Source: an uncultured Clostridia bacterium (GTDB taxonomy: Bacteria; Bacillota; Clostridia; TANB77; CAG-508). From it: 64,000 bases of DNA. Positions 20,605-50,923 of the stretch are shown one piece after another. The translations under genes and the position numbers were made by a program. The stretch's first letter is position 1. Every line of letters begins with the position of its first letter. The notes beneath the pieces are model-generated. The model had not been told where the DNA came from. It was given only the letters and a program-made list of their open reading frames with translations, and did no database searches. The stretch lies in NCBI GenBank assembly GCA_934130025.1, contig CAKOXG010000001.1:154-64153 (forward strand), in the 5' to 3' direction.

Positions 20605-20717
20605 AAATATAATCTCCATTAAAAATAATTCAAAGCAATTATATAATATTTTTTGCAAAGTGTCAAAAATTATGATATACTAATGACTAGATTTTTTATT
20701 ATAGGAAGGGAAAATTT

Positions 20718-32246: not shown

Positions 32247-33113
32247 ATGAGAAATAAAGCAGATACATTAAAAAGTACATTACAACCAAAGAATGATGTA
32301 GTGTTCAAAGCACTATTTTCAAGAGAAAAACCAGATATAACAAAAGCATTGTTAGAAGCAATATTGAAAATGAAAATAGACAAGCTAGAGTTAGACAAAA
32401 ACACAGAGTTATTAAATGACAACAAAGATGATAAAAACGGAAGACTGGATTTAAGAGCTGTAATTAATGGAAATACAGAATGTGATATAGAATTACAACT
32501 AGAGACACACAAAAGTATGGCAGAAAGGTTTTTGTATTATTGGGCGAAAATGTACACAGCAAATTTACAAGTGGGAGATCAATATAGCAAATTAAGAAAA
32601 ACAATAAGTATAATAATATTAGACGATGAATTACCATTAACAAAAGATATGAAAAAGCCTCAAACAATCTGGAAAATTCGTGAAGATGAGAACTCTGATA
32701 TATTGTTGACAAAGTATTTTGAGATTGGTATAATTGAGATACCAAAAGCCATAAAAGAATATGAAAAAAATCCACGAGATGAAGTTTTACAGTGGATGAT
32801 GTTTTTGGATAACCCGGAGAAAAAGGAGGTAACCAAAATCATGGAAGAAAATGAAGATATAAAAGAAGCAAAGGAAGAATTAGAAAAAATAAGCCAAGAT
32901 GATATACTTAGAAGAAAAGCATTAAATAGACAGTTGGAAATAGCAGATAGACTACAATTTGCCAAAGAAGCAAGAGAAAAAGGTAAAAAAGAGGGCGAAG
33001 AAATAAAAGCACGAAAAATTATAAAAAAATTGCATGATATGAATATGCCACTGGATCAAATAGCAAAAATAGTTGAACTTGAAGAAAAAGAAGTAGAAAA
33101 ATATTTAAATTAA
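32247..33113 (+). CDS. Rpn-family recombination-promoting nuclease / putative PD-(D/E)xK transposase (YhgA-like)
   Basis: 288 aa. N-terminal nuclease-like region (DVVFKALFS..DLRAV..CDIELQ) and the characteristic C-terminal IEEL..KEVEKYL tail. RBS AGGAGG. Confidence 0.65.
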   Translation: MRNKADTLKSTLQPKNDVVFKALFSREKPDITKALLEAILKMKIDKLELDKNTELLNDNKDDKNGRLDLRAVINGNTECDIELQLETHKSMAERFLYYWAKMYTANLQVGDQYSKLRKTISIIILDDELPLTKDMKKPQTIWKIREDENSDILLTKYFEIGIIEIPKAIKEYEKNPRDEVLQWMMFLDNPEKKEVTKIMEENEDIKEAKEELEKISQDDILRRKALNRQLEIADRLQFAKEAREKGKKEGEEIKARKIIKKLHDMNMPLDQIAKIVELEEKEVEKYLN

Positions 33114-41207: not shown

Positions 41208-43211
41208 ATGGCTGATAAATTAATAATAGTAGAATCACCTGCAAAGGCGAATACAATAAAAAAATTCTTGGGTGGAAGTACCAAGGTTGTGGCTTCTATG
41301 GGACATATTAGAGATTTGCCAAAATCAAAAATGGGTGTAGATATTGAACATGATTTTGAACCAGAATATATAAATATAAGAGGAAAAGGAGATTTAATAA
41401 AGTCTTTGAAAAAAGATGCGAAAAGTGCTAAAAAGGTATACCTTGCAACCGACCCTGATCGTGAGGGGGAAGCAATTGCATGGCATTTGGCTCATATATT
41501 AGACATTCCAGAAGACAGTGTGTGCAGAGTAACTTTTAATGAAATTACAAAAGAAACAGTACAAGAATCTATAAAAAAACCAAGAACAATAGATATGAAT
41601 TTAACAAATGCACAACAAGCAAGGCGTGTATTAGATAGAATTGTTGGCTATAAAATAAGCCCACTTTTATGGAAAAAAGTTAAGCCAGGGTTATCAGCAG
41701 GAAGAGTTCAATCTGTTGCAGTGAAATTAATTGTTGATAGAGAAAATGAAATAAGAAATTTTATTCCAGAAGAATACTGGAACATATACGCAAAGCTCCT
41801 AGATGAAAAATCAAAAAAAGAATTTGAAGCAAGATTTTATGGAAAAAGTGGTAAAAAATTAGAGCTGCATAAAAAAGAAGAAGTAGACGAGATATTAAAT
41901 GCCGTTGAAAATGGAAAATATATAGTTGCAAATGTTAAAGAGGGAGAGAAAAAGAGAACACCTGCACCTCCATTTACAACAAGTACAATGCAGCAGGAAG
42001 CTTCAAGGAAATTAGGATTTACTTTAAAGAAAACTATGTCTGTTGCACAGGGATTATATGAGGGAGTTAAAATTCCTGAAAAAGGAACAGTGGGTTTAAT
42101 AACTTATATGAGAACAGATTCCACAAGAATTTCTGAAGAGGCAAGAGCTGCTGCAAAAGAGCAAATAACTAAAATTTATGGTGAAGAGTATTACGAAAAT
42201 AGATATTACAAGAAGAGTAGTGAGGCTCAGGATGCGCATGAAGGTATAAGACCAACTTATATTTCAATAACTCCTGAAAGTATAAAAGAAAGCTTAACCA
42301 ATGACCAATATAAATTGTATAGACTTATTTATACAAGGTTTTTGGCAAGCCAGATGTCCTCTGCCGTTTATGATACAATAAATGTTGATATTGATGTAAA
42401 TGACTATAATTTTAAAGCTAGTGGACAAAATTTAAAATTCAAAGGATTTATGACTTTGTATGTAGAAGGCAAAGATGAGGAACAAGAAGATGAAGAAAAT
42501 ACAATAATTCCAAAGCTTGAGAAAGGACAGGAAGTTAAGAAAAAGAAAATTGAGGCAAAACAAAGTTTTACAGAGCCACCTGCAAGGTACACAGAAGCTA
42601 GCCTTGTAAAAGAACTAGAGGCAAAGGGAATTGGACGCCCAAGTACATATTCACCAACAATAACTACAATACTTGAAAGAAGATATATTGTAAAAGAAAA
42701 GAAACAACTTGTTCCAACTGAACTTGGAGAAATTGTAAATAAACTTTTAATTGAAAATTTTACAGACATAGTAAATGTAGAATTTACAGCAAAAATTGAA
42801 AATGAATTTGATCAAGTTGCAGATGGAAAAGAAGAATGGAAACAGGTTTTAAGAGAATTTTATCCACAGTTCGAAAAAGAAGTAGAAAAGGTTGATAAAG
42901 AATTAGAACATGTTAAAATAGAAGATGAAGTATCAGATGTTAAGTGTGATAAATGTGGAAGAAATATGGTCATAAAAATGAGTAGATATGGAAAGTTTTT
43001 AGCTTGCCCGGGGTATCCAGAGTGTAAAAATGTAAAACCATTTGTGGTAACTGTGGATGTTCCTTGCCCAGTATGTGGGGGAAAAGTACAAGTAAGAAAA
43101 ACTAAAAAAGGTAGAAACTTCTATATTTGTGAAAATAATCCTAAATCATGTAATTATATTTCATGGAATAAACCAAAGGTAGGAGAAAAATGGAAAAGCC
43201 CGGATAAATAA
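41208..43211 (+). CDS. topA: DNA topoisomerase I with C-terminal zinc ribbons
   Basis: Toprim domain (IVESPAKA, DPDREGE), the catalytic Tyr region and two C4 zinc ribbons (CDKCGR..C..C; CPVCGG..C..C). 667 aa. Confidence 0.95.
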   Translation: MADKLIIVESPAKANTIKKFLGGSTKVVASMGHIRDLPKSKMGVDIEHDFEPEYINIRGKGDLIKSLKKDAKSAKKVYLATDPDREGEAIAWHLAHILDIPEDSVCRVTFNEITKETVQESIKKPRTIDMNLTNAQQARRVLDRIVGYKISPLLWKKVKPGLSAGRVQSVAVKLIVDRENEIRNFIPEEYWNIYAKLLDEKSKKEFEARFYGKSGKKLELHKKEEVDEILNAVENGKYIVANVKEGEKKRTPAPPFTTSTMQQEASRKLGFTLKKTMSVAQGLYEGVKIPEKGTVGLITYMRTDSTRISEEARAAAKEQITKIYGEEYYENRYYKKSSEAQDAHEGIRPTYISITPESIKESLTNDQYKLYRLIYTRFLASQMSSAVYDTINVDIDVNDYNFKASGQNLKFKGFMTLYVEGKDEEQEDEENTIIPKLEKGQEVKKKKIEAKQSFTEPPARYTEASLVKELEAKGIGRPSTYSPTITTILERRYIVKEKKQLVPTELGEIVNKLLIENFTDIVNVEFTAKIENEFDQVADGKEEWKQVLREFYPQFEKEVEKVDKELEHVKIEDEVSDVKCDKCGRNMVIKMSRYGKFLACPGYPECKNVKPFVVTVDVPCPVCGGKVQVRKTKKGRNFYICENNPKSCNYISWNKPKVGEKWKSPDK

Positions 43212-43230
43212 ATCCGAGCTTTTCTTGGAG

Positions 43231-43737
43231 TTAGACTGTTTCTGACATCACGCTATGCTGCATGCGCAGCACTTCGTGCCGACGCCGCGTGTTTGCGGCC
43301 ATCCGAACGGGGAGATACCCGTCAGAACAGAGCCGCCTGAGAAGTACCGGGCTGGTCTGGCTGTTGTTCACAACAGCCAGTCTAATTTCCCAGTCGCTTT
43401 TTCGCGACAGGAAATCCAGAGTTTTCTGGCTCGCCCTGGGGTTATTTGCAACCCCCAACAGAACGGACCTGGATGCGTCGTGGGCCAATACCCACAACGC
43501 ATCAGGTGAGATATTCTGATGCTTAGCAGCCGCTAAGCGGACTGCCTCGCAAGGATCCTTAGCCAGGAAGCTAAGTGCCCTTGCTTGAGTGCTAGGATTC
43601 GCCGCTACAGCAGCGCGAACTCCAGCAATCGGCAGCCGAGCAGCCTGCTCGAGCCGTTCCGGATTAACCCTGGGAGACTTAACATATTCTCCCAGCTCCT
43701 CAATGGTGAATTCCTGCTTTCCGATGCAATAGTACAT
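43231..43737 (-). CDS. leucine-rich-repeat-variant (LRV/HEAT-like) repeat protein of foreign composition (168 aa)
   Basis: Tandem ~24-aa repeats of the form PxxxVRxAVAxNPxTxxxxLxxLAxD (PIAGVRAAVAANPST..AVRLAAAKHQNISPDAL..SVLLGVANNPRASQKTL..EIRLAVVNNSQTSPVLL). Perfect GGAGG RBS 7 nt before the ATG. Confidence 0.6.
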   Translation of the reverse strand: MYYCIGKQEFTIEELGEYVKSPRVNPERLEQAARLPIAGVRAAVAANPSTQARALSFLAKDPCEAVRLAAAKHQNISPDALWVLAHDASRSVLLGVANNPRASQKTLDFLSRKSDWEIRLAVVNNSQTSPVLLRRLCSDGYLPVRMAANTRRRHEVLRMQHSVMSETV

Positions 43738-43775
43738 GTTGTAACCTCCATTGTTATTTGGGGAAGATCCCCGTG
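43234..43775. other. ~540 bp GC-rich (~57% GC) compositional island in a ~28% GC background
   Basis: Abrupt change in base composition and codon usage exactly spanning one minus-strand ORF and its RBS. Flanks return to AT-rich sequence. Confidence 0.7.
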
Positions 43776-43784
43776 ATTACTTTG

Positions 43785-43813
43785 ATTATACCACGAACAA
43801 TGCAAAATGTCAA
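43785..43813 (-). promoter_or_regulatory. consensus sigma-70/sigma-A promoter TTGACA-N17-(TG)TATAAT driving the LRV gene (minus strand)
   Basis: Reverse complement of 43785-43813 reads TTGACATTTTGCATTGTTCGTGGTATAAT. Both hexamers are perfect consensus with an extended -10 TG. Confidence 0.5.
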
Positions 43814-43920
43814 ATAATGGAAAACAACATTACATAATACAGAAAAAGAGAAAATATTCAAACTATGATTGATAATTTTAGAGATTTAGTGTATAATTAT
43901 AATTCAGTGAATGGGAGAAT

Positions 43921-46891
43921 GTGGAAATGGAAAATTATAAGGTATTTGGGCAAGCAATAAAAGAGTTTTATTCTCTAGAAGAAACAAATAAAGAAGTACA
44001 AAAAGGTAAAAAAGAAATATCTGGGAAGGTACATTTAGAACCCAGAATTATATGTAGCAATTTAAATAATTCATTAAAGCTAGAGATATATATAGGCGAA
44101 AAGAATATGTATAAAATAAAGTCAATTCCAGAATTTTATGATAGATTCATGGATGGTGAAAAGTATAAATATGGTGCAAAACTAGAAATTGTACACACGA
44201 AAGAAAGATTTGCAAAAGAGGACCAAAAGCTCCTAGAATTTGTACTTAAATATGCTGAGATTATAAAATATGCCAATGAATCAAGTACAGGATATGATTA
44301 TTATACAAAAAGATTGGGAGAAGATTCAATTATCTTGTCAAATACAGGATTAGATGAATTATTTGAATGTTTAATAGATAAAAGTATTGAAATGGATAAT
44401 CAATATTCAACTGAAAGAGTATTATTAGTTGATAAAGAGCCAGAAATAAAATTCAAATTGAAGCAAATGAATCAAAAGGAATATAAAATAATTACTAACA
44501 TAGATGTGTATGATTATACAATTTATGATGGAAGGAAGTATGTATATATATTAATTAAGAATAAATTATATAGATGTTCTAAAAAATACAGAAATACTGT
44601 AATAAAATTACTTGAAATATTTAAAAAAAACTTTACAAAAGAAATCATACTTCCAGAAAGTGACCTTACTAAGTTTTTTGTGATTATAGAGCCAAACATA
44701 AAAAACAATATCGAAATTTCTGATGCAGAATACAAGAAGATTAAAAAATTTATTCCACCACAACTATATGCAAAATTATATTTAGATTATAATGAGCAAA
44801 ATTATGTTATTGCAGATATTAGGTTTATATATGATGAAACAGAGATAAATCCATTGGAAGAAAAAGTATACCCAGAGATTATTTCTAGGAATACAATAAA
44901 AGAAGCTCAATTATTAAACATGTTTGTTACATCTGGGTTTATGCTGGATCAGAAAAATCATAGATTAGTATTAGCAAACAATGAAAAAATATATGAATTT
45001 TTAAGTGAAGATATAGATTCATATATGACAAATTTTGAAGTATTAGCAACGGAAAATTTTAAATCAAAAGAGATAAAAAATAATACTAAAATTTCTTTGG
45101 GTGTAAAAATTGAAAATCACTTATTAGATATAGATTTTTCAAACTTGAGTTTCGATCCTAAAGAACTAAAAGATATAATGCAGCAGTATAAACTAAAAAA
45201 GAAATATTACAGGCTTAAAGATGGAAGTTTTATAAAACTAGAAAATAATGAAACTATTCAAGTAATAAATAGCTTAACTGAAGATATTGATATTGATTAT
45301 AGTAAAATTGAAGACGGAAATTTGAAACTACCAATGTACAGGGCGCTATACCTTGAAAAAATTTTAGAAAAGAGCAATGTAGTAAGGGCTAATAAAGATG
45401 ACAATTTTAAAAGTTTAATTGAAAATATTGACGTAAAGGGAATTGAAGGGAAAATAGAGACTCCAAAGCTTTTGAAAGCCAATTTAAGGGAATACCAAAA
45501 AATTGGAGTGCAATGGTTAAGAACGTTGAGCTCTTATGGCTTGGGACGGGATTCTTGCTGATGATATGGGGCTTGGGAAAACCGTACAACTATTGTGTGT
45601 TGTATGTAAATACCTAGAAGATGAAACAGAAAAAAACAAAAAACCAACATTAGTTGTTTGCCCAAGTTCTTTATGCCTGAATTGGCAAAATGAAATAGAA
45701 AAATTTACACAAGGAGTCACTTCTGAAGTTATACATGGGTCACTTCAGGACAGAATGAGAAAAATAGCGGAAATTAATAATTATAATATAGTAATAACTT
45801 CATATGAATTACTAAAAAGAGATATAGATGAATATAAAAAGTACAATTATAAATTTAAATATATAATAGCAGACGAAGCTCAATATATAAAAAATAATAA
45901 CACACAAAATGCTAAAGCAATAAAAGATATAATATCTGAAACAAGGTTTGCACTAACAGGAACACCAATAGAAAATTCACTCTCAGAATTGTGGTCTATT
46001 TTTGACTTTATAATGCCTGGATATTTATTTAGATATAGAAAGTTCAAAGAATTATATGAGACACCAATAATGAGAGATAATGATGAAATTGTTATGCAGA
46101 AACTAAAAAAGTTAATTGAACCATTTGTTTTAAGAAGAATAAAAAAAGAAGTTTTAACAGAACTTCCAGATAAAACAGTAACCGTATTAAGCAGCCAGAT
46201 GCTTGAAGAGCAAGAAGAGATTTATTTATCATATTTAACTCAGGCTAAAAAGAGTGCAATGGAAGAAATAAAAGAAAACGGGATAGAAAAGAGCCAAATT
46301 AAGATTTTAGCACTACTTACAAGGCTAAGGCAAGTATGCTGCCATCCTAGCTTATTTATAGAAAACTATGAAGGTGGTAGTGGAAAATTAAATCAATGTA
46401 TTGAAATAATAAAAGATGCAATACAAAGTGGACACAAAATTTTACTTTTTTCTGGCTATACGGCAATGTTTGATATAATTGAAAAAGAATTGAAAAAAGA
46501 GCAAATTTCATATTTAAAGCTAACAGGCCAAACAAAAGTATCTGATAGAATAAATTTGGTTGACGAATTCAATAACAATCCAGATAAAAAATTGTTTCTA
46601 ATTTCGCTAAAGGCTGGTGGAACGGGACTAAATTTAGTTGGAGCAGATATGGTAATTCATTATGACCCTTGGTGGAACGTGTCATCAGAGAATCAGGCTA
46701 CAGATAGAACATATAGAATAGGGCAAAAAAGAAATGTTCAGGTATATAAATTAATAACTAAAAACTCTATAGAAGAAAAAATTTATGATTTACAAAAAAG
46801 AAAAGAAGCATTAATTGATAATATGTTATCTACAAACCAAACATTTATTAGTAAATTATCAAAAGAAGAAATAATGAATTTATTTGAATAG
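43921..46891 (+). pseudogene. SNF2-family helicase (~989 aa), frame broken by a 1-nt insertion at 45547
   Basis: The N-terminal ORF ends ..YQKIGVQWLRTLSSYGLGRDSC*. The next frame reads (G)ILADDMGLGKT (SNF2 motif I), then DEAQ, TGTP and helicase C motifs (QATDRTYRIGQ). Removing the C in GGA-C-GGG-ATT fuses them. Confidence 0.75.
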
Positions 46892-48474: not shown

Positions 48475-50175
48475 ATGGAAGAAAATATAAAAAAACTATT
48501 AAAAGAAAGAACGGAATTAGAAGCTAAATTTGCTAAAATGAAAAAAGACCTTGCAGATAATTTAAAATATATAGACGACGATTTCGAAAGTTATAGAAGC
48601 AAAGATCTATTAACAAAAGATGAGCAATTAGCAAGATTTGAGCAAATTAAGAAAGAATATACAACAAAAGCTGAAGCAGACATGAACGCTGTTAAGGCAG
48701 AAATTGATAAGATAAATGAAAATATTACATCAAAAATAATAACACTAAGGGGCGAATGGGCTAAAAAGTTAAACCATGAAATAGACCTTGCTGAAAAACA
48801 AGAACAGCTTGCTCTTGCAAAGAAAGAACTAGATGCGGCAGAAGCAGAATATAACCACAATTTGACAGAATACTTCTATAGAGACAATTCAACTGTTACA
48901 TCACTTGATGACTCAAGAGTTGTGGCTGCAAAGAAAAAGTATGCTTTATTAAAAGGTGAGCTAGAAGCAGCAATTGAAGCAGATAAAAAGGAAAGAGAAT
49001 CTATAAGAGAAAAAATAGAAAAAACCAATAAGTTTTTTGACAAACTTCTTATCCAAGACGCAACCGTAGAAGAAATACTTGGAGCTGTGGAGGGAAAAGA
49101 AGCTCAAAAAGCAGAAACTGAGCATGAGGAAGAAAAAGAACCAGAAGCTATGGTTGAGCAAGGAGAAAAACAAACAAAATCAGAAAAGAAACAAGAAGAA
49201 CCAGAAGTAGTTACAGAAAATGAGCCTTCTGAAAATGTTGGCACAGTAACAGAAAGTAAAACTATAGCAGAATTGAATGAAGAGCCAACTGTGGTAAAAC
49301 CTGTTGAAAGAATGGAATGGAAACCGGCAGCTCCAAATGATGCTGCAGCACATAAAAAAGAAGAGAGCGTTGGAGAGGTAAGAATTTCTCAGCCGACAAA
49401 AATAATGGGATTGAGAGAAATAGAGACTGATTTATCAACAGGACTGATTACTATTACCTCATCAGACGGAAAAAAACTTACTAGTGCTATGGGAAACGAA
49501 TTTGTAAATAAAGCAGAGGCTGTTGAGTTTTTGCATGAGCAAGGAATAGAATATTCAAAAGGAGACCCTTACATGATGATTACTCTATGCCAAGCTGCAA
49601 CAGAGTTATCAAGAAAAATAGGACAAGATAAAAATAAAATACTAAAGAAATTTATAACTGATTATGAAAAATCTATAAGTAGCACAACACCTGTAGAGCA
49701 AATGACAGATGCTGAATTGGAATCTGTTGCAATGATAAGATACTTTAAATCAGAAAAAAAATTAGATAAAAATGTATTGAAAGCACTTAGACCATACATA
49801 AAAGAAGCTAAAAATTCTACATGTGCGGTTGTGGATGTAGATGCGAGAACATGGTTTGAAAAAGCAAAAGATTTTATTGTGGCTAAAGTATTCAATAAAC
49901 ACGAAAGATTGGAAGAGGGAAAACATTCACAAGAATTGAAAAAGTTTGGTGTCGATGGTAAAGTTATAGAAGATAAACAGCATCCTGAAATTCCAGAAAA
50001 GTCTTTTGTTGAAAGTTTAAAAGTTAGCAAGGATTCAAGAAAAATAGATGAAAAATTGGCAGCTGCAACAAAAGTACCAGATGCGAGAGCTGCTGCAAGA
50101 TATAATATTGATAAAATAGATAGAGCAAAAATTGTAAGAGATTCAAGACAATCTTCAGATGAATTTGAGAGATAA
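48475..50175 (+). CDS. hypothetical protein (566 aa): N-terminal coiled coil, acidic E/K-rich linker, C-terminal globular region
   Basis: Long ORF with a good RBS (GGAGG). No recognisable catalytic motif. Confidence 0.5.
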   Translation: MEENIKKLLKERTELEAKFAKMKKDLADNLKYIDDDFESYRSKDLLTKDEQLARFEQIKKEYTTKAEADMNAVKAEIDKINENITSKIITLRGEWAKKLNHEIDLAEKQEQLALAKKELDAAEAEYNHNLTEYFYRDNSTVTSLDDSRVVAAKKKYALLKGELEAAIEADKKERESIREKIEKTNKFFDKLLIQDATVEEILGAVEGKEAQKAETEHEEEKEPEAMVEQGEKQTKSEKKQEEPEVVTENEPSENVGTVTESKTIAELNEEPTVVKPVERMEWKPAAPNDAAAHKKEESVGEVRISQPTKIMGLREIETDLSTGLITITSSDGKKLTSAMGNEFVNKAEAVEFLHEQGIEYSKGDPYMMITLCQAATELSRKIGQDKNKILKKFITDYEKSISSTTPVEQMTDAELESVAMIRYFKSEKKLDKNVLKALRPYIKEAKNSTCAVVDVDARTWFEKAKDFIVAKVFNKHERLEEGKHSQELKKFGVDGKVIEDKQHPEIPEKSFVESLKVSKDSRKIDEKLAAATKVPDARAAARYNIDKIDRAKIVRDSRQSSDEFER

Positions 50176-50257: not shown

Positions 50258-50923
50258 ATGAAGAAGATATTGTTTGTAATTGCAATGGAAAAAGAAGCAA
50301 AAGACATTGCAAAAGAACTGGGGCTAGAAGAAAAGAATACTGGAAATGGTAAAGTATTTGAAAAAAACAATATAAGCTTATTAATAAGTGGAATTGGAAA
50401 ACAGCAAACTGCAATAAACTTGACTAAGTATATTGAAAACAATAGAGAAAATCTTCCTGATATTATTATTAATGTGGGATATGTTGGCTCTACAAAATCA
50501 CAAATAGGAAGCTGGGTAAGTGTAAATAAATCATACAATTATGAATGGTTTATTCCAGGGGAACAAAAATATGAAATAGAAGGATATAACAAAAACTTAA
50601 TAAAAACGATAAATGAAAATGAAGAACAACAAATAATAAATAACGTACAAGAAATGAGAATGAACGGGAATAGTAAGAAAATTAAAGTACTCCCTTGTTA
50701 TAGTGCAGAAAGCTTTGTTACTCTAACCAACATAACTGATGATGTAGTATTTGACATGGAACTTCATTCAATCTATATGGTTTGTTGTATGTATGGAATT
50801 GAGCTTATTTCACTAAAAAAGGTAAGCGATAATTTAAGCCTTGATGATTATTACAAAAATATTGATATGAAAGAAGTAATGGAATTAACAAGTTCATTGA
50901 AACTTTTAGGAATGATTAACTAA
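50258..50923 (+). CDS. PNP/UDP-1 family nucleosidase (MTA/SAH nucleosidase-like)
   Basis: ISGIGKQQTAIN resembles the SGIGKVNAA motif of MtnN/Pfs. 221 aa. Confidence 0.5.
   Translation: MKKILFVIAMEKEAKDIAKELGLEEKNTGNGKVFEKNNISLLISGIGKQQTAINLTKYIENNRENLPDIIINVGYVGSTKSQIGSWVSVNKSYNYEWFIPGEQKYEIEGYNKNLIKTINENEEQQIINNVQEMRMNGNSKKIKVLPCYSAESFVTLTNITDDVVFDMELHSIYMVCCMYGIELISLKKVSDNLSLDDYYKNIDMKEVMELTSSLKLLGMIN

What the first reader, a model, noticed from the sequence alone, without database searches (positions are those of the whole stretch)
43231..43813. Gene-sized GC-rich island (~57% GC) encoding an LRV-repeat protein, with textbook expression signals, inserted convergent to topA
Composition jumps from ~28% to ~57% GC for ~540 bp covering exactly one 168-aa ORF and its RBS. 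The protein consists of leucine-rich-repeat-variant/HEAT-like repeats. Its RBS is a perfect GGAGG at 7 nt. Its promoter, in the AT-rich flank, is a perfect TTGACA-N17-TGnTATAAT. A single foreign-composition gene behind consensus signals looks like very recent horizontal acquisition, an engineered cassette, or an assembly chimera or contaminant.
Basis: seen in the sequence. Interest (0 to 1): 0.7.

Follow-up and report, generated by a model that had tools for sequence, protein, structure and literature searches.

The report
Foreign hairpin-rich LRV gene beside topA
A real, naturally acquired 0.6-kb foreign gene cassette encoding a small LRV-repeat (helical solenoid) protein sits in the tail of the topoisomerase I gene of one uncultured gut Clostridia species; it is an ordinary gene transfer except that its RNA folds far more strongly than its protein sequence requires.

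Summary
A 55% GC, 168-aa minus-strand ORF (43231-43737) lies in a 28% GC genome. It has a 12/12 sigma-70 promoter with TG, a GGAGG RBS at 7 nt, and a terminator shared with convergent topA.

It is not a chimera or a construct. The same junctions recur in more than 20 independent gut-metagenome assemblies, with at least 12 island haplotypes. The island was not found in the loci I fetched from 80 related species. No protein more than 50% identical exists outside this locus, so the donor is unknown.

It is a genuine LRV protein: Pfam E=2e-13, AlphaFold pLDDT 87, best PDB match 1LRV. It is under purifying selection (piN/piS 0.22). Its codons are foreign: 6 CGG codons, against 3 in 17,578 host codons.

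Synonymous diversity is about 3.4 times that of flanking genes. Most substitutions on the non-window branches run GC to AT, which fits amelioration.

One property is unexplained. The transcript is a chain of hairpins, with z=-10.6 against dinucleotide shuffles and -8 to -10 against synonymous-codon shuffles. Seven control genes or gene segments give -1.3 to +1.0. There is almost no covariation.

A 9-bp direct repeat flanks the 618-bp cassette and may be a target-site duplication (p about 0.06). The protein's function is unknown.

The parts
41208..43211 (+). topA (topoisomerase I, 667 aa). Its last codons (K-S-P-D-K-stop) and its terminator lie in sequence that has no counterpart in relatives.
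   Evidence: ORF; Pfam Toprim/Topoisom_bac/Zn_ribbon_Top1. DNA homology to relatives stops at 43194-43196. Relatives carry K/T-rich tails of variable length, giving proteins of 659-712 aa.
43189..43197 (.). Left copy of the 9-bp direct repeat AATGGAAAA. It is a candidate target-site duplication or junction microhomology.
   Evidence: Repeat family D3. It coincides with the end of homology to relatives. A 9-nt shared word between the two boundary zones has p about 0.06-0.07 by chance.
43193..43224 (.). Bidirectional intrinsic terminator: 13-bp stem, 6-nt loop. It is perfect on the LRV strand (one G-U pair) and has one A-C mismatch on the topA strand. The topA stop codon sits in the loop.
   Evidence: (I3). 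It is identical in all alleles.
43231..43737 (-). LRV-repeat protein gene: 168 aa, pI 9.7, 18.7 kDa. An N-terminal beta-hairpin-plus-helix cap is followed by about 5 LRV repeats.
   Evidence: AlphaFold pLDDT 86.8. The best PDB match is 1LRV. piN/piS is 0.22. The N-cap is shared with P0150.
43381..43495 (-). Hairpin-dense core of the gene, invariant in 11 of 12 haplotypes (one change, in allele C), synonymous sites included.
   Evidence: Alignment A4 columns 286-400; helices.
43357..43380 (-). Perfect 11-bp palindrome whose 2-nt loop is polymorphic by inversion (GA or TC) among haplotypes. This is a template-switch signature.
   Evidence: I5; sites 43368 and 43369.
43745..43749 (-). Ribosome-binding site GGAGG, 7 nt upstream of the ATG.
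   Evidence: Read. Conserved in all alleles.
43760..43772 (-). 5'-UTR hairpin GGGGA-ucu-UCCCC, a few nt from the predicted transcription start (about 43778). Only its loop varies.
   Evidence: pairs 9-13/17-21 are invariant; column 15 varies.
43785..43813 (-). Consensus sigma-70 promoter TTGACA-17-TGgTATAAT in AT-rich, host-like DNA. Two spacer positions are polymorphic.
   Evidence: sites 43798 and 43802.
43816..43824 (.). Right copy of the 9-bp direct repeat AATGGAAAA.
43824..43868 (+). Inferred remnant of the pre-insertion topA tail. Read in the topA frame after the right repeat, it gives T-T-L-H-N-T-E-K-E-K-I-F-K-L-stop.
   Evidence: reconstruction ...GEKWKTTLHNTEKEKIFKL*. This is inference only: a 15-codon open frame has a chance probability of about 0.27.
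43869..43897 (+). Native promoter of the downstream SNF2-family gene (TTGATA-17-TATAAT), homologous to the promoter in relatives. It marks the right-hand return to host sequence.
   Evidence: alignment with L019, L021, L031, L056 and L060.

Best explanation
A 618-bp self-contained expression cassette (promoter, 5'-UTR hairpin, RBS, LRV-repeat ORF, terminator) was acquired by horizontal transfer. It inserted once into the 3' tail-coding end of topA in the ancestor of one uncultured, 28% GC gut Clostridia species, a relative of Clostridium sp. CAG:273. It is now fixed in that species.

How it most likely works:
- A host-type consensus sigma-70 promoter drives a monocistronic transcript of about 590 nt, from about 43778 to 43193. 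This is inferred from sequence signals.
- The transcript is translated from a strong RBS into an 18.7-kDa basic cytoplasmic alpha-solenoid with no enzymatic domain. The protein presumably acts by binding a partner, which is unknown.
- The gene is kept by purifying selection (shown). AT-biased mutation is meanwhile eroding its GC content (shown for the non-window branches).
- The dense chain of local hairpins in the transcript is real (shown). My best guess, with low confidence, is that it stabilises or insulates a poorly translated, rare-codon, head-on transcript against RNases, Rho or R-loop formation. Alternatively it is a by-product of template-switch mutation.
For: The island is natural and fixed.
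- The exact protein occurs on 11 contigs.
- The exact island-truncated topA is recorded on 43 contigs and in 47 blocks of the index. All 10 places shown carry the LRV gene.
- There are 12 haplotypes.

It is foreign.
- GC3 is 59% against 19% for topA.
- 25 of 168 codons are ones the host uses fewer than 2 times per 1000. The ORF has 6 CGG codons, against 3 in 17,578 host codons.
- None of the 80 related loci fetched has the gene or any GC-rich island.
- Only 30-38%-identical LRV solenoids exist among 1.84 billion cluster representatives.

It encodes a real protein.
- Pfam LRV E=2.3e-13.
- pLDDT 86.8.
- 1LRV is the top structural hit, rmsd 2.5 A over 114 columns.
- piN/piS is 0.22, similar to neighbouring host genes. 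Pairwise dN/dS is 0.2-0.4.

It is being ameliorated.
- On the B and C branches GC>AT changes outnumber AT>GC changes 28 to 8.
- piS is 0.048, against 0.007-0.022 in flanking genes.

The cassette has defined boundaries.
- Homology to relatives ends at 43194-43196 and resumes at the SNF2 promoter.
- A 9-bp direct repeat sits at both edges.

The RNA structure is exceptional.
- z=-10.65 for the sense strand and -8.06 for the antisense strand.
- z is -8.3 to -10.2 against synonymous-codon shuffles.
- Flanking 150-nt windows give -0.7 to +0.9.
- All intact alleles give -5 to -10.
Against: - There is no expression or protein evidence. Heavy use of codons the host almost never uses questions efficient translation.
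- No donor, mobility gene or terminal inverted repeat was found. The 9-bp repeat is not significant on its own (p about 0.06).
- 2 of 15 sampled sequences carry inactivating mutations 11 nt apart: a nonsense at 43496 in L090 and a 1-nt deletion at 43507 in L088. The gene is therefore dispensable in some strains.
- The proposed role of the hairpins is untested. Substitutions hit stems as often as loops (32 of 51 sites, with 69% of bases paired). Only 1 of 187 pairs shows a compensatory change.
Confidence: 0.65

Rival explanations
1. The functional product is the RNA. The island would be a new large structured RNA gene, or a dual-function RNA. Its GC richness would reflect selection for stable structure in an AT-rich genome, not foreign origin alone. 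The LRV ORF would be secondary.
For: - The GC-rich segment coincides with the predicted transcription unit, from the start site to the terminator.
- z is -10.65 against dinucleotide shuffles and -8 to -10 against synonymous shuffles. Seven control genes or gene segments give -1.3 to +1.0.
- There are 8 perfect hairpins against 1.65 expected.
- The sense strand is 26 kcal/mol more stable than the antisense strand, with 22 G-U pairs against 12.
- A 115-nt hairpin core is invariant across haplotypes, synonymous sites included.
Against: - No Rfam family matches, even at E<=10.
- The covariation term is -0.66, and only 1 of 187 pairs is compensatory.
- Substitutions do not avoid stems, and in B and C alleles most of them break pairs.
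- Synonymous diversity is raised, not lowered.
- The ORF shows clear protein-level constraint and true LRV homology.
Confidence: 0.12
2. The cassette is a functionless passenger: junk DNA acquired by illegitimate recombination, decaying neutrally and not yet lost.
For: - Two independent loss-of-function alleles exist.
- Island nucleotide diversity (0.021) roughly equals the synonymous diversity of flanking genes.
- Mutation runs mainly GC>AT on the non-window branches.
- Codon usage is unadapted.
- There is no known function.
Against: - piN/piS is 0.22 and pairwise dN/dS is 0.2-0.4.
- 13 of 15 sequences keep the full ORF, RBS, promoter hexamers and terminator, despite up to 7% divergence.
- The island is fixed in all sampled genomes.
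Confidence: 0.15
3. The island is an assembly chimera, a contaminant read-through or an engineered cassette.
For: - Textbook expression signals, plus BamHI and XhoI sites in the ORF.
- A single gene of foreign composition.
Against: - The same junctions appear in contigs from many cohorts and assemblers (Hadza, MERR22, GAIO21, TONG22, Logan unitigs, and SPAdes and MEGAHIT contig names). Contigs reach 85 kb.
- Natural allelic series with mosaics.
- Perfect promoters also occur at two other places in the window.
Confidence: 0.01
4. The island is a locus of targeted hypermutation or cassette exchange (DGR-like, or repeated site-specific replacement). This would explain why haplotypes differ by 4-7% inside the island and by about 0% in the 700 bp on either side.
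For: - A versus B1: 26 differences in 585 island positions, against 1 in 590 adjacent positions.
- pi is 0.021, against 0.0017-0.0056 in the flanks.
- B-branch changes cluster at 43536-43580.
- Mosaic haplotypes L097, L102 and L104.
- Flanking 9-bp repeats.
Against: - No reverse transcriptase, template repeat or recombinase appears within about 10 kb (gene lists).
- Changes are not adenine-specific and also hit the UTR and the promoter spacer.
- The excess is about 3.4-fold at synonymous sites. About half of that is expected from AT-biased mutation acting on GC-rich third positions (plus my own calculation).
- No second source copy exists in any database.
Confidence: 0.05

Closest known systems
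Azotobacter vinelandii leucine-rich-repeat-variant protein (PDB 1LRV; Pfam PF01816)
   Same: Same repeat family and predicted fold. It is the best Foldseek match: rmsd 2.5 A over 114 columns, 29% identity. The Pfam score is well above the gathering score.
   Different: The window protein has no Fe-S cluster domain (only 3 Cys). It has a short beta-hairpin-plus-helix N-cap instead and is 168 aa against 233. No function is known for either protein.
ANL24 of the Synechococcus elongatus pANL plasmid, and other LRV-only proteins (for example P0150)
   Same: - Small or pure LRV solenoids with no other Pfam domain.
- ANL24 is 160 aa and 36% identical over 122 residues.
- P0150 shares the N-terminal cap (30% identity over residues 1-157).
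   Different: - Identity is only 30-38%, so none is a plausible donor.
- Their genes show no excess RNA structure (z -1.3 to -0.25).
- None has a known function.
Single-gene horizontally acquired 'islets' or ORFans undergoing amelioration (concept of Lawrence and Ochman; cited from my own knowledge)
   Same: Atypical GC and codon usage, restriction to a single species, mutation toward host composition, and raised substitution rate.
   Different: - The direction is unusual: a GC-rich gene in a very AT-rich host, so AT-targeting xenogeneic silencing does not apply.
- The unit is exactly one promoter-to-terminator cassette inserted inside the tail of an essential gene.
- No vehicle was identified.
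Dual-function or highly structured bacterial RNAs (RNAIII, SgrS, SR1) and GC-rich ncRNA islands in AT-rich genomes (cited from my own knowledge)
   Same: Strong promoter, 5' hairpin, intrinsic terminator, GC-rich transcript in an AT-rich genome, and very negative folding z-score.
   Different: - Here the ORF fills the whole transcript and is itself under selection.
- There is no covariation and no Rfam match.
Quasipalindrome (template-switch) mutagenesis (cited from my own knowledge)
   Same: - Loop inversion GA/TC in the perfect 11-bp palindrome at 43357-43380.
- Clustered multi-base changes, including one arm-to-arm compensatory pair at 43692/43673.
   Different: It is known as a source of individual mutations. 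It has not been shown to build a gene-wide excess of hairpins, so its role here is conjecture.

Membership tests
LRV repeat proteins (Pfam PF01816) | Sequence match to the LRV repeat model above Pfam's gathering score | tested here: met
   50 bits against a cut-off of 21.6, E=2.3e-13, 3 stretches. There are 6568 LRV-type relatives at E<=1e-3 in the representative library.
LRV repeat proteins (Pfam PF01816) | Solenoid of short alternating helices, as in the type structure 1LRV | tested here: met
   AlphaFold model with pLDDT 86.8 and 12 short helices. 1LRV is the top Foldseek hit. This is a predicted structure only.
LRV repeat proteins (Pfam PF01816) | N-terminal 4Fe-4S domain of the A. vinelandii type protein (a feature of the type protein, not of the Pfam family) | tested here: not met
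   Only 3 Cys (C4, C63, C137). The N-terminus is predicted as a beta-hairpin plus helix.
Horizontally acquired genomic islet | Composition and codon usage atypical for the host | tested here: met
   55% GC against 28%; GC3 59% against 19%; 25 of 168 codons rare in the host.
Horizontally acquired genomic islet | Absent from the homologous locus in related lineages | tested here: met
   None of the 80 loci fetched from GTDB species genomes (topA 76-88% identical) has it.
Horizontally acquired genomic islet | Mobility footprint (target-site duplication, terminal repeats, integrase, tRNA site) | tested here: inconclusive
   A 9-bp direct repeat lies exactly at both edges, but p is about 0.06. There are no terminal inverted repeats and no integrase or transposase within about 10 kb.
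Horizontally acquired genomic islet | Identifiable donor lineage | tested here: not met
   Nothing above 50% identity outside this locus in 15 billion proteins, or in JGI metagenomes, IMG/VR, phages or plasmids.
Structured non-coding RNA | Match to a curated RNA family | tested here: not met
   No Rfam hit at gathering thresholds in the whole window. Only chance-level hits appear at E<=10.
Structured non-coding RNA | Folding energy well beyond shuffled controls | tested here: met
   z=-10.65. Against synonymous shuffles z is -8.3 to -10.2; controls give -1.3 to +1.0. The signal is confined to the island.
Structured non-coding RNA | Base pairs supported by covariation | tested here: inconclusive
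   1 of 187 pairs has a compensatory change and the covariation term is -0.66. Most pairs never vary. The 12 haplotypes are too similar to decide.
Structured non-coding RNA | No protein-coding constraint | tested here: not met
   piN/piS is 0.22 and the ORF is intact in 13 of 15 sequences.
Diversity-generating retroelement or targeted hypermutation | Nearby reverse transcriptase with a template repeat, and adenine-specific changes in a variable repeat | tested here: not met
   The neighbouring genes are dcw-cluster genes, topA, SNF2, gid/trmFO-like, PNP and SMC. Substitutions are mainly GC>AT, spread over the ORF, UTR and promoter. The rest of the genome was not available.
Assembly chimera or synthetic construct | Junctions unique to one assembly, with no natural variation | tested here: not met
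   More than 20 independent contigs share the junctions, and 12 haplotypes exist. Read-level support was not testable.

The most novel reading that the evidence does not exclude
The roughly 590-nt transcript is itself a functional, highly structured RNA of an undescribed class that also encodes a protein. A variant of this reading is that the gene-wide chain of hairpins, the foreign-composition segment matching the predicted transcription unit, and the flanking 9-bp repeat together mark an unknown route of gene transfer through a single-stranded or RNA intermediate.
Probability: 0.12. Interest if true: 0.7.

Novelty: new variant of a known kind. Interest (0 to 1): 0.42.

Why it matters
In itself this is an accessory gene of unknown function in an uncultured gut bacterium. 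It has value in three ways.

1. It is an unusually clean natural example of a single promoter-to-terminator cassette of GC-rich DNA fixed in a very AT-rich genome. Amelioration, purifying selection and occasional loss can all be measured across many metagenomes.

2. The insertion rewrote the C-terminus of an essential gene (topA) and supplied its terminator.

3. The coding sequence carries far more RNA or DNA secondary structure than the protein requires. Related LRV genes do not share this property. If it is adaptive, it would bear on how foreign, rare-codon, head-on genes survive in a new host. If it is mutational, it would be a gene-scale footprint of template-switch mutagenesis.

Tried and rejected
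- Rfam at gathering scores over the whole window, and at E<=10 over the island: nothing meaningful.
- PHROGs and PADLOC on the LRV protein: no hit. NCBIfam: only a sub-threshold LWXIA hit.
- PDB sequence search: only chance hits.
- Donor search: 5.8-billion-protein word search run twice, exhaustive HMMER against 1.84 billion representatives, JGI metagenomes, IMG/VR by protein and by DNA core, phages and plasmids. Only 30-41%-identical LRV proteins were found.
- Tandem repeats at DNA level: none. This argues against an origin by recent repeat amplification or concatemers.
- Terminal inverted repeats at the cassette ends: none (by inspection).
- Second copies of the terminator or the 5' UTR in the window or in related loci: none.
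- I first thought the B allele lineage was a decaying pseudogene, because L090 and L088 are both disrupted. I rejected this when 8 further intact 170-aa B-type genes were found.
- I first read the contrast between island and flanks as hypermutation. It shrinks to a roughly 3.4-fold excess at synonymous sites once flank dS is used as the yardstick.
- Test of whether real substitutions spare the structure: only weakly (p about 0.05-0.1). That test is biased, because the reference structure comes from allele A.
- Rooting of the A/B/C alleles is ambiguous. The A-specific states are G/C and paired, which fits either an ancestral A or selection in A.
- The afdb50 fold library was not available.
- My first shuffle script timed out.
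Full report
**1. The observation**

The island is real and lies at the stated coordinates.
- In 200-bp windows, GC rises from 0.22-0.36 to 0.50-0.565 between 43200 and 43799 and then falls back. No other 1-kb bin of the 64-kb window exceeds 0.351.
- The island holds one minus-strand ORF, 43231-43737, of 168 aa. GC at codon positions 1/2/3 is 61/46/59%, against 45/33/19% for topA.
- Upstream on the same strand lie GGAGG (43749-43745, 7 nt before the ATG), a 5-bp 5'-UTR hairpin (43772-43760) and a 12/12 promoter TTGACA-17-TGgTATAAT (43813-43785).
- The perfect hexamer pair occurs three times in the window against 0.05 expected. It is therefore a host-type strong promoter, not something unique to the island.
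- Downstream, a 13-bp-stem terminator (43193-43224) is shared with convergent topA. The topA stop codon (43209-43211) lies in its loop.
- The stem is perfect on the LRV strand with one G-U pair. On the topA strand it has one A-C mismatch.

**2. It is natural, not an artefact**

- The exact 168-aa protein is encoded on 11 metagenome contigs in the same gene context: dcw cluster, DUF6514, topA, LRV, SNF2_assoc, SNF2 helicase, gid/trmFO-like, PNP, SMC.
- The exact topA protein, with the island-derived C-terminus, is recorded on 43 contigs from ENA, NCBI and Logan, and in 47 blocks of the index. All ten places shown carry the LRV gene directly downstream, as a 168- or 170-aa ORF.
- Contig names show several cohorts and assemblers. 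Contig lengths reach 85 kb.
- Fifteen sequences give 12 island haplotypes that differ by up to about 7%. They include mosaics (L097, L102, L104).

This excludes a chimera, a contaminant and a laboratory construct.

**3. It is foreign and confined to one species**

- I fetched the topA locus from 80 related species genomes. All are uncultured Clostridia, including Clostridium sp. CAG:273, and one complete MAG is 1.57 Mb. Their topA is 76-88% identical.
- None has the LRV gene, and none has any 300-bp window above 46% GC.
- DNA homology between the window and these relatives stops at 43194-43196, inside topA at ...G-E-K-W. BLAST picks it up again only at 43927.
- A multiple alignment shows that the SNF2 promoter and 5' UTR (43869-43926) are also homologous to those of relatives.
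- An exhaustive HMMER search of 1.84 billion cluster representatives found only the island's own alleles above 50% identity. Everything else is a 30-38%-identical LRV solenoid, mostly 600-2200 aa.
- Word-indexed searches of 5.8 billion proteins, JGI metagenomes, IMG/VR, phage genomes and plasmids added nothing closer than 41%.
- Codon usage is strongly foreign. 25 of 168 codons are ones the host uses fewer than 2 times per 1000. The ORF has 6 CGG codons, whereas 42 host ORFs (17,578 codons) have 3.

Absence elsewhere in those genomes therefore rests on the protein searches.

**4. It is a real LRV protein under selection**

- Pfam LRV scores 50 bits against a cut-off of 21.6.
- An AlphaFold model from a 3-sequence alignment has pLDDT 86.8. 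It shows an N-terminal beta-hairpin and then 12 short helices.
- The best PDB match is 1LRV, followed by HEAT and alphaRep solenoids.
- The N-terminal cap is shared with an LRV-only protein from a low-GC organism (P0150; 30% identity over residues 1-157).
- Ten homologues scanned against Pfam contain nothing but LRV/HEAT repeats. The family therefore gives no functional clue.
- The protein is basic (pI 9.7), and I saw no N-terminal hydrophobic stretch typical of a signal peptide (by eye).
- Across 11 sequences that share the same topA protein, piN/piS is 0.22 for LRV. Neighbouring host genes give 0.06-0.25, apart from the small DUF6514 gene (0.69) and topA (0 by construction, because the sequences were chosen for an identical topA protein). 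Pairwise dN/dS is 0.2-0.4.
- Thirteen of 15 sequences keep the full ORF.
- L090 has a nonsense mutation at 43496 (codon 81). L088 has a 1-nt deletion at 43507 (codon 77). The two lie 11 nt apart, in and next to one hairpin.

**5. Rate and direction of change**

- Island nucleotide diversity is 0.021. Flanking genes give 0.0025-0.0056, and the adjacent intergenic 105 bp gives 0.0017.
- At synonymous sites the island has piS 0.048, against 0.007-0.022 in the flanks, about 3.4-fold higher. For the window against L090, dS is 0.087 against 0.022.
- On the B and C branches, GC>AT changes outnumber AT>GC changes 28 to 8.
- With host GC3 at 19% and island GC3 at 59%, AT-biased mutation alone predicts a roughly 1.8-fold higher neutral rate (my calculation). 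Amelioration therefore explains about half of the excess. The rest could be sampling, head-on transcription-associated mutagenesis or hairpin-templated events.
- The states specific to the window allele are G/C, and those inside the transcript are base-paired. Either allele A is closest to the ancestor, or it has been selected toward GC and pairing. The rooting could not be settled.
- I first read the contrast with the immediate flanks (26 differences in 585 positions against 1 in 590) as hypermutation. That is an overstatement once synonymous flank divergence is used as the yardstick.

**6. How it got there**

- A 9-bp direct repeat, AATGGAAAA, lies at 43189-43197 and at 43816-24. These are exactly the left limit of homology to relatives and the outer edge of the promoter.
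- The 618 bp between the repeats is the complete cassette.
- Read in the topA frame, the sequence after the right repeat gives T-T-L-H-N-T-E-K-E-K-I-F-K-L-stop. This is compositionally like the variable K/T/E-rich topA tails of relatives. It ends directly at the conserved SNF2 -35 hexamer.
- This fits a simple insertion with a 9-bp target duplication into the topA tail. The insertion would have replaced the last roughly 15 codons with S-P-D-K-stop and supplied a terminator.
- The repeat alone is not significant (p about 0.06-0.07), and the open frame has p about 0.27.
- There are no terminal inverted repeats and no mobility genes. The mechanism remains open.

**7. The unexplained property: excess secondary structure**

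- The predicted transcript (43780-43193) folds at -273.9 kcal/mol. Dinucleotide shuffles give -201 +/- 6.9, so z=-10.65. The antisense strand gives z=-8.06.
- When synonymous codons are permuted, keeping the protein and the codon composition, the ORF still gives z=-8.3 (60 shuffles) or -10.2 (48 shuffles). The other intact alleles give -5.0 to -7.7.
- Controls give -1.3 to +1.0. They comprise five segments from four other LRV genes (49-71% GC), host topA, and a cyanobacterial response-regulator gene.
- In 150-nt windows, the flanks score -0.7 to +0.9 and the island scores -1.2, -5.0, -3.9 and -6.6.
- The structure is a row of about 14 local hairpins. Eight perfect Watson-Crick stems of at least 6 bp are seen, against 1.65 expected.
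- The sense fold has more G-U pairs than the antisense fold, 22 against 12.
- The 115 nt at 43381-43495, which hold the largest hairpins, are invariant in 11 of 12 haplotypes, synonymous sites included.

Evolutionary support for a selected structure is nevertheless weak.
- Variable sites fall in stems about as often as expected (32 of 51; 69% of bases are paired).
- Only 1 of 187 consensus pairs shows a compensatory change (43692/43673), and the covariation term is -0.66.
- Real substitutions are only marginally gentler on the fold than random ones of the same type (p about 0.05-0.1).

There are direct signs of template-switch mutation.
- The 2-nt loop of the perfect 11-bp palindrome at 43357-43380 is GA in some haplotypes and its inverse, TC, in others.
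- Several changes come as adjacent multi-base clusters.

I therefore regard the hairpin excess as real and its cause as undetermined. It could be adaptive, through transcript stabilisation or insulation from Rho, RNases or R-loops for a poorly translated head-on gene. It could be inherited from the unknown source. Or it could be a by-product of hairpin-templated mutation in GC-rich DNA.

**8. Comparison with known things, and verdict**

- As a protein it is a new, short, orphan member of the LRV family.
- As a genomic feature it is a single-gene horizontally acquired islet under amelioration.
- It matches no RNA family, defence-system model or phage protein family.
- It differs from other members of its kind in three ways: the exact promoter-to-terminator unit inserted inside the tail of topA, the unusual direction of transfer (GC-rich DNA into a 28% GC host), and the extreme folding of its coding sequence.
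The horizontal-transfer reading is supported. The chimera and engineered readings are refuted, and 'very recent' needs qualifying.
- Interest is moderate: an ordinary class of event with one genuinely odd and testable property.

Noticed in passing
window 45536-45561 (ORFs 43921-45561 and 45536-46891): The SNF2-family helicase gene downstream of the island is split into two overlapping ORFs (546 and 451 aa) by a frameshift just before the GxGKT motif. The split is seen in every conspecific contig, whereas relatives such as L007 and L010 have one ORF of 994-1117 aa. Both halves still show low dN/dS or piN/piS (0-0.25). It may therefore be a functional split gene or a frameshifting site rather than a pseudogene.
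   Followed up: partly
window 48475-50175 and 50258-50923: The 566-aa protein with no Pfam hit and the PNP_UDP_1 gene are hotspots of strain divergence. They show 22-40 differences per 500 bp against L002-L004 and L090, where the background is 0-5. Part of the pattern is shared between strains, which suggests recombined or diversifying segments.
   Followed up: no
window 43496 and 43507 (alleles in L090 and L088): Two independent inactivating mutations of the LRV gene lie 11 nt apart: a nonsense in L090 and a 1-nt deletion in L088. They fall in and beside the hairpin GCATCAG-N10-CTGATGC. Position 43507 is also substituted (A to C) in all B-type alleles, so this may be a local mutational hotspot.
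   Followed up: partly
window 43357-43380: The loop of a perfect 11-bp palindrome inside the ORF is GA in some haplotypes and its reverse complement, TC, in others. The two states occur across different haplotype backgrounds. This suggests recurrent hairpin-mediated inversion or recombination.
   Followed up: partly
window 20638-20666 (-) and 32706-32734 (+): Two more perfect TTGACA-17-TATAAT promoters lie in the window. The second also has TGgTATAAT, like the island promoter. I did not examine what they drive.
   Followed up: no
L010 6068-6541 (related species, same intergenic position): Between topA and the SNF2 gene this relative has a 474-bp stretch of raised GC (35-43%). It contains a 71-aa ORF with CxxC motifs. 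The topA-SNF2 spacer appears to be a variable spot across the clade: gaps range from 110 to 2066 bp, some species have a SWIM-like N-terminal extension on the SNF2 protein, and others have unrelated genes there.
   Followed up: partly
L007-L086, 3' end of topA: The C-terminal tail of topoisomerase I after ...C(N/D)YISWN... varies greatly among related species. It runs from 3 residues (NKPK-stop) to more than 50 K/T-rich residues. Truncation by the island is therefore probably tolerated.
   Followed up: partly
L089 392-2185 and 3970-4656: The 228-aa LRV protein P0003 is the closest relative found by the word-indexed searches outside this locus (41% identity over 40% of the query). On its high-GC soil contig it lies about 1.8 kb from a gene with a Cas12f1-like TnpB domain.
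   Followed up: no
L094 3-383 and 380-1648: The LRV-only homologue that shares the N-terminal cap (P0150) is preceded by another LRV-repeat ORF that overlaps it by 4 nt. In that organism the LRV genes therefore occur in tandem.
   Followed up: no
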